From positions 8,432,001-8,496,000 of the forward strand of contig OX597819.1 of assembly GCA_951406725.2 (NCBI GenBank): a DNA stretch of 64,000 nt, written 5' to 3'. Of the stretch, positions 59,420 to 60,271 are shown piece after piece. The stretch comes from Octopus vulgaris. Its lineage: Eukaryota. Position 1 is the first letter of the stretch. Every line of letters starts with the position of its first letter. The position numbers are program-made.

Positions 59420-60216
59420 TGTATGTATGTATGTATGTATGTATGTATAAATATATATATGTGTGTGTGTGTATATATATATATATATAAATATTAAAAT
59501 TTCTAAGTCTCTCTAAAGGAGACTACGGCAGTGGTACTGGATATTAAAAGTTATTGCCAAGCTAATATGGCAGTCTAGGTATATAGTACGAATGCTGCCG
59601 TTGATTAGCTCCAACAGACCATCGCCTCCAGCTAGCTATGTGACACACGAACCTGTGTTCATTATAACTTTCCAACAGAGGAGGGTAGCCGCTTCTCCTT
59701 ACTGGTCAGGCATCTACAGACTAGTTTCAGGGTATTTGCCCTTTATCAATGCAGAGCAGCCGAACCAAGCAGGCGTTGCTACTAACTGTCTGTTCGAAGA
59801 ATTATTTACCTAAATTCAGTGGAATACATCCACTGGTTTTCAAAAATAGAAATATCATTAATATCCAGTACTGCTGCCGTAGTCTCCTTTAGAGAGACTT
59901 ACAAGTTTTAATATTTCTATTTTTGTAAACCAGTTGATGTATTCCACTGAATTTAGGTAAATAATCCTTCGAACAGACGGTTAGTAGCAACGCATGCTTT
60001 GTTCGGCTGCTCTGCATTGATAAAGGGCAAATACCCTGAAACTAGTCTGCAGATACCTGACCAGCAGGAGGAAGCGGCTGACTTCCCCTATTCAAAGGTT
60101 ATAATGGATACAGGTTCGTGTGTCACATAGCTAGCTAGAAGTGATGACTTCTTGGAGCTAATCAACAGCAGCATTCGTCGTATATTCCTGGACTGCCATA
60201 TTAGCTTGGCGATAAC

Positions 60217-60271
<55 letters not shown>

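What the first reader, a model, noticed from the sequence alone, without database searches (positions are those of the whole stretch)
59489..60225. Two exactly unit-length monomers opened at different points: signature of a circular or multimeric RNA template
Seen: 59489-59855 and the inverted 59857-60225 each contain one full 361-nt unit with 6-8 nt terminal redundancy, but their start points differ by ~52 nt (circular permutation). They also differ by scattered substitutions, so this is not a simple local fold-back. Established: retrozymes accumulate as circular RNAs, and inverted partial duplications are typical of Penelope-type insertion. Inference: the copies came from a circular or tandem template and were inserted at AT-rich microhomologies.
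Basis: partly seen in the sequence, partly recalled or inferred. Interest (0 to 1): 0.8.

Follow-up and report, generated by a model that had tools for sequence, protein, structure and literature searches.

The report
Inverted pair of a 361-base mobile repeat
Two head-to-head copies of a 361-base non-coding repeat, each exactly one unit long but starting 52 bases apart, look like the usual footprint of a Penelope-type jumping element landing in a TA microsatellite and carry no self-cutting RNA motif.

Summary
59489-59855 (+) and 59857-60225 (-) are 367 and 369 nt. The reverse complement of the second aligns without gaps (328/368, 89%) to a head-to-tail dimer of the first's 361-nt unit, starting at unit position 53. 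Terminal redundancies are exact (6 and 8 nt), and one filler base separates the copies.

The window holds two more insertions of the family. One is a 1.48-unit partial tandem (31561-32094). The other is a short head-to-head pair (25147-25349) with the same two outer end points, unit positions 1 and about 53.

Outer ends are constant and abut (TA)n at 5 of 6 ends. Inner ends vary. One arm of each pair carries a 52-nt extension.

This matches the published insertion architecture of Penelope-like elements: partial tandems, an adjacent inverted copy, a tail at one end, and (TA)n targets.

No hammerhead or other known ribozyme was found on either strand, so it is not a retrozyme as defined.

A template with head-to-tail units is required. 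Whether that template was a circle, a multimer or template jumps cannot be told from one window.

In both pairs the inner ends are offset by about the tail length (54 and 51 nt). This is unexplained.

No reverse transcriptase lies in the window.

The parts
59489..59855 (+). Copy A: unit positions 1->361 plus 6 nt (367 nt). The proposed RNA sense is the complement, so its 3' end is at 59489 next to (TA)n.
59489..59540 (+). Segment X (unit 1-52). This outer extension ('tail') is present on this arm only. It contains the hairpin AGTCTC-N7-GAGACT.
59856..59856 (.). Single filler base C between the two copies. It matches neither register.
59857..60225 (-). Copy B: unit positions 53->361->60 (369 nt) in inverted orientation. 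It reads through the 361|1 unit junction.
59541..59855 (+). Left arm of the 315-nt inverted repeat (unit 53-361 plus 6).
59911..60225 (-). Right arm of the 315-nt inverted repeat.
59245..59488 (.). Left flank, a compound microsatellite: (AT)39, then (GT)n and (ATGT)n, then (TA)9 abutting copy A.
60225..60266 (.). Right flank, (AT)21, abutting copy B. It shares its first base with the last base of copy B.
31561..32094 (+). Locus 2: partial tandem of the same family, unit ~51/56->361->228 (1.48 units, about 75% identical to A). The left end abuts (AT)37. The right end, at unit 228, abuts TGTA-type sequence. Its two overlapping unit parts are 98-100% alike.
25147..25253 (+). Locus 3, left arm: unit ~3->109. 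The outer end abuts (AT)18.
25253..25349 (-). Locus 3, right arm: unit 160->~53-63, inverted, sharing one base (G) with the left arm. The outer end abuts an impure (TA)n array of about 480 nt.

Best explanation
Locus 1 is one insertion of a short (361 nt), non-coding, ribozyme-less retroelement. It was made by target-primed reverse transcription of the Penelope-like (PLE) kind.

Proposed mechanism (all steps inferred):
- The two 3'-OH ends of a break in, or next to, a (TA)n run each primed cDNA synthesis on UA-rich sites of the template. These sites carry the shared motif ATATTAA at unit 3-9 and 53-59, 52 nt apart.
- The template carried more than one unit head to tail.
- The two cDNAs grew towards each other's side. 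They were joined 5'-part to 5'-part by a template jump that left one untemplated base.
- The result is a head-to-head pair with constant 3' ends outside, one of them carrying a 52-nt 'tail'.

Shown by the sequence: the geometry, the permutation, the recurrence of both end points in independent loci, the (TA)n association, and the absence of known ribozymes.

Inferred: the RNA intermediate, the priming scheme, and a PLE enzyme as the driver.
For: 1. The permuted, ungapped unit-length copies are confirmed.

2. The family has 3 loci in the window and no others. nhmmer found 5 significant segments in both runs; every other hit had E>0.5.

3. The flanks of the three loci share no similarity (0 non-self hits). 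They are therefore independent insertions, not segmental duplications.

4. The end at unit ~51-57 recurs in 3 of 3 loci. The end at unit ~1-3 recurs in 2 of 3. Inner ends lie at 6, 60, 109, 160 and 228, as expected for 5' truncation.

5. Both head-to-head loci have the X extension on one arm only.

6. (TA)n sits at 5 of 6 ends. By the strict test, 4 of 6 ends lie within 12 nt of a pure (AT)>=6 run, against a background of 4.55% of positions.

7. Published PLE features match:
- Partial tandems forming pLTRs, an inverted 5'-truncated copy adjacent at the 5' end, a 30-40 bp tail often at one end only, (TA)n bias, and no canonical HHR in Naiads (PMC8557442, passages).
- All 5 cephalopod Naiad families and the octopus Hydra family are listed with a (TA)n preference (supplement table).
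- A 31-bp tail on one of the inverted pLTRs, pLTRs sufficient for integration in trans, and circularly permuted copies (PMC3846280, passages).
- Second copy in tandem, inverted pLTRs and short 3' extensions (PMC8969392, passage).

8. There is some sign of structural constraint. On a 3-sequence alignment, 8 of 85 predicted pairs change on both sides, against 3.7+-1.3 in shuffles (1 of 500 reach the observed value) and 0-3 in slid controls.
Against: - No reverse transcriptase or GIY-YIG domain was found. I scanned 185 non-low-complexity stop-to-stop ORFs of >=65 aa across the whole window, and the only transposon protein is a Tc1/mariner remnant. The driver is therefore unidentified.
- The tail is 52 nt, longer than the published 30-40 bp.
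- Target-site duplications cannot be read in (TA)n.
- For locus 2 the (AT)n lies only on the 3' side. A weak candidate duplication (TATGTATG, present in 4.2% of 30-nt windows) would place it inside the insertion. The (TA)n may therefore be a tail rather than a target.
- Only three loci were available, so end-point recurrence rests on 2-3 instances.
- The covariation structure was derived from the same three sequences and is biased towards itself.
- Informative sites where all four arms of loci 1 and 3 overlap are too few to show that the arms of a pair were made together: 2 group by locus, 1 by arm type, 0 the third way, of 46 columns.
- A LINE-type twin priming would give a similar pair.
Confidence: 0.55

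Rival explanations
1. The unit is a retrozyme-like element that exists as a ~361-nt circular RNA. Each arm is one turn of reverse transcription round a circle, opened at a different AT-rich microhomology.
For: - Both arms are one unit plus 6-8 nt. A polymerase stopping when it meets its own start on a circle would give this.
- The unit size (361 nt), GC content (41%) and tandem occurrence fit the published description of metazoan non-LTR retrozymes: 150-450 bp units with GC <50% (PMC7229834, passages).
- Circular folds are moderately more stable than shuffles: z = -2.9, -2.5 and -2.6 for three of four strand/copy combinations.
Against: - The defining hammerhead is absent. There are 0 CTGANGA cores in 8 strand/copy searches of dimerised units. 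No ribozyme family matched at E<=10.
- Locus 2 is 1.48 units long, and locus 3 has arms of ~108 nt. Unit length is therefore not the rule.
- One of the four folds is not distinguishable from shuffles (z = -0.7). Only about 60% of bases pair, and the MFE structures differ between copies.
- All four ends of locus 1 fall at the two ATATTAA sites. Joining there would also give unit lengths from a linear multimer.
Confidence: 0.15
2. A DNA-level origin. A 361-bp satellite-type repeat spread as short arrays or extrachromosomal circles, or a local tandem underwent a fold-back (template-switch) duplication. No RNA was involved.
For: - The tandem organisation.
- Locus 1 is formally a 315-nt palindrome with a 55-nt spacer. 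A fold-back on a template of at least 1.16 units could generate this.
- AT-rich sites are plausible break or microhomology points.
Against: - A fold-back does not explain why the returning arm stops at unit 53. That same end point is seen in two other, unrelated loci.
- It does not explain why X lies outside the palindrome on one side in both pairs.
- It does not explain the pattern of constant outer ends and variable inner ends.
- No longer array of the unit occurs in the 64 kb.
Confidence: 0.12
3. The 737-bp composite is itself a mobile unit with two defined termini. One possibility is a non-autonomous DIRS-like element: inverted terminal repeats Y/y plus an internal region x complementary to the left extension X. 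Another is a foldback or MITE-type DNA transposon. Locus 3 would be its internal-deletion derivative.
For: - Loci 1 and 3 share both outer termini.
- ITRs of 315 nt, plus an internal 59-nt segment complementary to the start of the left end (93%), resemble the ITR+ICR layout described for DIRS (PMC8969392, passage).
- TA-rich targets fit Tc1/mariner-type MITEs, and a Tc1/mariner remnant lies at 56059-56802.
Against: - The outer ends share only the 7-nt ATATTAA, so there is no true terminal inverted repeat.
- The internal segment is complementary to the left end only. It is not also complementary to the right end, as the DIRS layout requires.
- Locus 3 lacks that internal segment.
- Locus 2 is a direct partial tandem, which this model does not produce.
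- The arms of locus 3 are no closer to their supposed counterparts in locus 1 than to each other: 44/48 between the locus 3 arms, against 43/49 and 41/48.
- No tyrosine recombinase domain was found among the 185 ORFs.
Confidence: 0.1
4. Assembly or read artefact: a chimeric fold-back read produced a false palindrome.
For: Inverted duplications are a known artefact class. This is recalled, not tested.
Against: - The arms differ by 40 substitutions and no indel, and are shifted by 52 nt.
- A second locus has the same architecture.
- The flanks are ordinary unique sequence.
Confidence: 0.02

Closest known systems
Penelope-like elements, especially the (TA)n-targeting, hammerhead-less Naiad clade (Craig et al. 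2021, PMC8557442; Arkhipova et al. 2013, PMC3846280)
   Same: - Partial tandem copies.
- An inverted copy joined head to head.
- A short extension at one outer end only.
- 5' truncation.
- Association with (TA)n.
- No canonical hammerhead.
- Circularly permuted copies are reported for PLEs.
   Different: - The unit is only 361 nt and non-coding.
- No RT/GIY-YIG ORF lies in the window.
- The tail is 52 nt rather than 30-40 bp.
- No sequence link to any published PLE could be tested. Nucleotide consensus sequences were not visible in the supplement as held, and 4 short motifs of the unit were not found in it.
Metazoan non-LTR retrozymes (Cervera and de la Pena 2020, PMC7229834; Li et al. 2026 preprint, 10.64898/2026.07.22.740005)
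   Same: - A short, AT-rich, non-coding unit that occurs head to tail.
- Monomers, dimers and multimers are all described for retrozymes.
- They are proposed to be non-autonomous derivatives of PLE terminal sequences.
   Different: - The type I hammerhead that defines the family is absent on both strands.
- Circular RNA is untested.
- Arrays here are at most 1.5 units long.
LINE-1 type twin priming (5' inversion)
   Same: Two target 3' ends prime on one RNA and give an inverted plus a direct segment. This is recalled; only titles and abstracts were seen in the listing.
   Different: - Here both outer ends are recurrent element ends.
- The template must exceed one unit.
- Partial tandems also occur.
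DIRS retrotransposons of the ITR+ICR type
   Same: Long imperfect inverted terminal repeats, with an internal segment complementary to one terminal extension. The layout is classically explained by a circular intermediate (PMC8969392, passage).
   Different: - The complementarity is to one end only.
- There is no recombinase.
- A direct tandem copy exists in the family.
- The (TA)n association is not a DIRS trait, as far as I recall.

Membership tests
Metazoan non-LTR retrozyme | Short (about 150-450 bp) low-GC unit occurring in head-to-tail repeats | tested here: met
   The unit is 361 nt with 41% GC. The 361|1 junction is read through in copy B and in locus 2, which is 1.48 units long.
Metazoan non-LTR retrozyme | Type I hammerhead ribozyme in the unit | tested here: not met
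   There are 0 CTGANGA...GAAA cores on either strand of A, B, L2 or L3, with A and B dimerised so that a junction-spanning motif would be seen. No hammerhead or other ribozyme family matched at E<=10, and none at gathering score in the window.
Metazoan non-LTR retrozyme | Expressed as small, highly self-paired circular RNA | not testable with these tools
   Only folding could be done. Circular MFE z-scores are -2.9, -2.5, -2.6 and -0.7, with about 60% of bases paired. This is inconclusive.
Penelope-like element insertion | Partial tandem of copies (pseudo-LTR) | tested here: met
   Locus 2 covers unit 56->361->228. Copy B carries 59 nt of an upstream unit.
Penelope-like element insertion | Inverted 5'-truncated copy immediately adjacent, head to head | tested here: met
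   In locus 1 the copies are 1 nt apart. In locus 3 they overlap by 1 nt. In both, the constant ends face outward.
Penelope-like element insertion | [quoted passage not shown] | tested here: met
   Segment X (52 nt) lies on one arm in both pairs. It is longer than the published 30-40 bp or 31 bp.
Penelope-like element insertion | Preference for AT-rich or microsatellite targets, (TA)n in Naiad and Hydra | tested here: met
   5 of 6 ends abut (TA)n-type runs. By the strict criterion 4 of 6 do, against a 4.55% background. Whether the (TA)n is a target or a tail is unresolved.
Penelope-like element insertion | Reverse transcriptase with GIY-YIG endonuclease encoded by the element or an autonomous partner | tested here: not met
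   None was found among 185 ORFs of >=65 aa in the window. The rest of the genome could not be searched, so a partner elsewhere remains open.
Penelope-like element insertion | Variable-length target-site duplication | tested here: inconclusive
   The flanks are self-similar (TA)n. The one candidate (TATGTATG at locus 2) is present in 4.2% of 30-nt windows.
DIRS (ITR+ICR type) | Inverted terminal repeats plus an internal region complementary to both terminal extensions; tyrosine recombinase | tested here: not met
   ITRs are present (315 nt). The internal 59 nt are complementary to the left end only. No recombinase domain was found. Locus 3 lacks the internal region.
Helitron | 5'-TC and 3'-CTRR ends with a 3' hairpin; insertion between A and T | tested here: not met
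   Read directly from the ends: AAATATT... and ...CTATTAAT in either orientation. There is no TC/CTRR pair. The Helitron definition is recalled.
MITE / foldback DNA transposon | Terminal inverted repeats at the outermost ends with a fixed short duplication | tested here: not met
   The outer ends share only 7 nt (ATATTAA). X is unpaired at one end.

The most novel reading that the evidence does not exclude
The family is a self-contained, ribozyme-less counterpart of retrozymes, mobilised by a (TA)n-targeting Penelope-like enzyme. Its head-to-head insertions record the geometry of the integration complex.

In both pairs, the arm that carries the 52-nt tail outside is shorter by 51-54 nt inside. 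This suggests the two cDNAs are made in lockstep, at a fixed spacing along one multimeric or circular template, by a two-ended complex.
Probability: 0.15. Interest if true: 0.7.

Novelty: new member of a known kind. Interest (0 to 1): 0.35.

Why it matters
How Penelope-like elements integrate is unknown, including why they leave tandem and inverted repeats with a one-sided tail. The cited authors say an in vitro system is still needed.

A 361-nt non-coding unit showing all these features in miniature, with both junctions readable to the base, is a convenient natural substrate for that question.

If the register-shifted equal arms hold genome-wide, they would constrain the mechanism.

If the unit proves to be merely the end of a known element, this is routine repeat annotation.

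Tried and rejected
- Ribozymes: three Rfam scans. The only hits at locus 1 are plant and animal miRNA models below their thresholds, which simply match the long hairpin of the inverted repeat. An explicit hammerhead core search found nothing, including with one mismatch conserved across copies.
- tRNA or SINE origin: ARAGORN found 0 genes in the window.
- Coding capacity: the 98-codon open frame inside copy A has no Pfam match and no protein relative.
- Host taxon: the Tc1/mariner fragment gave 11 relatives. Ten are unnamed and one is from a frog, so the result is uninformative. I did not use these proteins further.
- More family copies: an nhmmer run with all filters off, using a 3-unit profile, found nothing beyond the 5 known segments.
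- Segmental duplication of loci: rejected, because the flanks are unrelated.
- Look-up of the unit in the PMC8557442 supplement: 4 short motifs gave 0 occurrences. Long cells of that file are cut, so this is weak.
- Arm-specific relationship between loci 1 and 3: too few informative sites.
- Simple self-priming (snap-back) and single-inversion models were worked through by hand and rejected. Neither places X outside one arm and its complement between the arms.
- Literature searches turned up no description of a hammerhead-less, PLE-type non-autonomous tandem unit. These searches cover only the open-access library.

Full report
**Observation**

The window is AT-rich (35.7% GC) and crowded with microsatellites and short interspersed repeats. 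It holds no N and no recognisable host gene.

- Inverted arms of 315 nt (59541-59855 and 59911-60225, 89% complementary) lie 55 nt apart.
- The spacer is itself the inverted copy of the 59 nt that begin the left copy (93%).
- The reverse complement of 59857-60225 aligns without a gap, 328 of 368 positions, to a head-to-tail dimer of the first 361 nt of 59489-59855, starting at unit position 53.
- Copy A is therefore unit 1->361->6 (367 nt). Copy B is unit 53->361->60 (369 nt).
- The terminal redundancies are exact: 6 and 8 nt.
- One base, C at 59856, fits neither register.
- The 40 differences are all substitutions: 28 transitions and 12 transversions.

**The family in the window**

blastn and two nhmmer profile searches find three loci and nothing else.

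Locus 2 (31561-32094, + strand):
- It runs from unit ~51-56 through the 361|1 junction to unit 228, which is 1.48 units.
- It is about 75% identical to A.
- Its two overlapping unit parts are 98-100% alike.

Locus 3 (25147-25349):
- It is a short head-to-head pair: unit ~3->109 on the + strand, joined with a one-base overlap to unit 160->~53-63 on the - strand.

The flanks of the three loci share nothing, so these are independent insertions.

**End points**

Written in unit orientation:
- The end at ~51-57 (…TAATAGTTATCGCC) occurs in all three loci.
- The end at ~1-3 (…ATATTAAAATTTCTAAG) occurs in both head-to-head loci.
- Both sites contain the motif ATATTAA.
- The other ends lie at unit 6, 60, 109, 160 and 228.
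- Five of the six outermost ends abut (TA)n-type runs. By the strict rule, 4 of 6 lie within 12 nt of a pure (AT)>=6 run, while only 4.55% of window positions do.
- The exception is the unit-228 end of locus 2.

Constant ends facing outward and variable ends facing inward is the pattern of 3'-anchored, 5'-truncated retrocopies. That step is inference.

**Ribozymes and coding capacity**

Retrozymes are defined by a hammerhead (PMC7229834, passages; preprint 10.64898/2026.07.22.740005, abstract and passages).
- No CTGANGA...GAAA core exists on either strand of any copy. A and B were dimerised so that a motif spanning the junction would be seen.
- No ribozyme family reaches E<=10 at locus 1 or across the natural tandem junction of locus 2.
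- None reaches gathering score anywhere in the window.
- The miRNA-model hits at locus 1 are far below threshold. They reflect only the long hairpin.
- The unit has no tRNA-like part.
- Its one open frame has no family or relative.

**RNA structure**

- As circles, three of four strand/copy combinations fold 2.5-2.9 SD below dinucleotide shuffles. The fourth does not (-0.7). About 60% of bases pair, and the structures differ between copies.
- On an alignment of the three full Y segments, RNAalifold predicts 85 pairs. Eight of them change on both sides. Shuffles give 3.7+-1.3 (1 of 500 reach eight), and slid controls give 0-3.
- One hairpin reads AGAGGC/GCCTCT in locus 3 and nearly so in locus 2 (GCCTTA on its 3' side), AGAAGT/ACTTCT in copy B, and is broken in copy A.
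- This suggests some structural constraint in the propagating lineage.
- The caveats are that the structure was derived from the same three sequences, and that templated mutation in DNA hairpins could mimic compensation.

**Divergence between the arms**

- Differences per 46-nt bin, from unit 53, are 5, 9, 6, 10, 1, 3, 3, 3 (chi-square p=0.051).
- By region, identity ranges from 76% (unit 161-228) to 95% (229-361).
- This is borderline. It does not decide whether the arms were born identical.
- Where all four arms of loci 1 and 3 overlap (46 columns), 2 sites group by locus, 1 by arm type and 0 the third way. That is too few to use.

**Comparison with known systems**

The published architecture of Penelope-like elements matches point by point.
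- A 30-40 bp tail often present at one end only.
- A strong bias for microsatellites, (TA)n in Naiads, which also lack canonical hammerheads. All of these are from PMC8557442, passages.
- That paper's supplement table lists (TA)n as the preference of all five cephalopod Naiad families and of the octopus Hydra family.
- In a rotifer Penelope, a 31-bp tail sits on one of the inverted pLTRs, the inverted pLTR is 37 bp shorter, pLTRs alone sufficed for integration in trans, and circularly permuted copies were seen (PMC3846280, passages).
- A curation guide gives the same description (PMC8969392, passage).

Segment X (52 nt) behaves as such a tail. Locus 2 behaves as a pLTR-type partial tandem. Loci 1 and 3 behave as the inverted arrangement.

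What is missing is the enzyme. No RT or GIY-YIG domain occurs among 185 ORFs of the window. The only transposon protein is a Tc1/mariner remnant at 56059-56802.

I could not search the host genome, and the host itself is not identified (one search was uninformative). My impression that the SINE-like sequence at 32140-32318 resembles cephalopod repeats is recalled and untested.

**Mechanism**

The best-supported account is a two-ended, target-primed reverse transcription:
- The two 3' ends of a break in or beside (TA)n anneal to the two UA-rich sites, 52 nt apart, on a template longer than one unit.
- Each is extended.
- The two products are joined by a template jump that left the single C.

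A template with head-to-tail units is shown by the sequence. Whether it was a circular RNA, a multimeric transcript or successive jumps between monomers is not decidable here.
- Unit-length arms favour a circle.
- The 1.48-unit locus 2 and the ~108-nt arms of locus 3 show that unit length is not general.
- All four ends of locus 1 sit at the two ATATTAA sites, which could by itself give unit lengths.

**An unexplained regularity**

- In locus 1 the outer ends are offset by 52 nt and the inner ends by 54.
- In locus 3 the inner ends are offset by 51.
- The arms of each pair are therefore equal in length (367/369, and about 107-109 against 98-108) but shifted in register by about the tail length.
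- The rough chance per locus is 9 in 361.
- The rotifer numbers (tail 31, inverted pLTR 37 shorter) look like the same phenomenon.
- Coupled synthesis at a fixed spacing would explain it. A centre deletion of a locus-1-like composite would not.

**Rivals**

- A DNA-level fold-back or satellite/eccDNA origin does not explain the recurrent stop at unit 53, or X lying outside one arm.
- A composite mobile unit (DIRS-like ITR+ICR, or MITE) fits the shared termini of loci 1 and 3. It fails on the missing right-end complementarity, the missing true terminal inverted repeat, the direct tandem of locus 2, and the absence of a recombinase.
- An assembly artefact is contradicted by substitution-only divergence, the register shift, and the second locus.

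**Verdict**

This is a real structure, correctly described. It is best read as an ordinary Penelope-type insertion of a short non-autonomous unit (or of the terminal part of a longer element) into a (TA)n context. It is not a retrozyme by the defining test. The circular-template idea remains open.

Noticed in passing
window 25147-25349 and 59489-60225: In both head-to-head pairs, the arm that carries the 52-nt outer tail is shorter by 51-54 nt at its inner end. The arms are therefore equal in length but shifted in register.
   Followed up: partly
window 27826-28445: A second, unrelated palindromic structure. It has arms of about 150-160 nt (87% complementary). (GTT)n/(ATT)n and (AAT)n/(AAG)n/(AAC)n runs face inward around a ~65-nt core. 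By eye the core looks tRNA-like, but ARAGORN calls no tRNA.
   Followed up: partly
window 56059-56802: Tc1/mariner transposase remnant (HTH_Tnp_Tc3_2 E 2e-17, DDE_3 E 4e-7), broken between frames. The closest relatives are 343-aa proteins at 66-74% identity from unnamed sources.
   Followed up: partly
window 13164-13565, 17708-18108, 29380-29788, 33853-34241, 36634-37025, 41016-41430, 42659-43095, 45948-46349; partial copies at 32122-32317 and 54706-54860: A ~400-nt interspersed repeat family with 8 full and 2 partial copies (about 86-96% alike among the full copies, about 72-81% for the partial ones). It ends in ...CACACAGCCACTCCT, followed in most copies by GCGCCTAT, which one copy repeats as a 17-nt unit. 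One partial copy directly adjoins the truncated end of locus 2.
   Followed up: partly
window 11620-12001, 16451-16832, 37396-37776; partial copy at 43635-43829: A second young repeat family of ~382 nt, 96-98% alike among the three full copies.
   Followed up: no
window 26512-27530, 25351-25831, about 58300-58560: Very long microsatellites: (TATG) x ~254, an impure (TA) x ~241, and a (GATA)n array. Pure (AT)>=6 runs alone make up 2.85% of the window (50 runs).
   Followed up: no
window 31476-31489 and 32094-32107: TATGTATG(A/C)ATAT occurs on both sides of locus 2. If it is a target-site duplication, about 70 nt of (AT)n lie inside it, as a 3' tail of the insertion rather than a pre-existing target. 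The 8-mer is present in 4.2% of 30-nt windows, so the evidence is weak.
   Followed up: partly
window 59541-60225: If transcribed through, locus 1 would form a ~315-bp hairpin RNA, a possible small-RNA source. The below-threshold Rfam miRNA hits there reflect only this hairpin.
   Followed up: no
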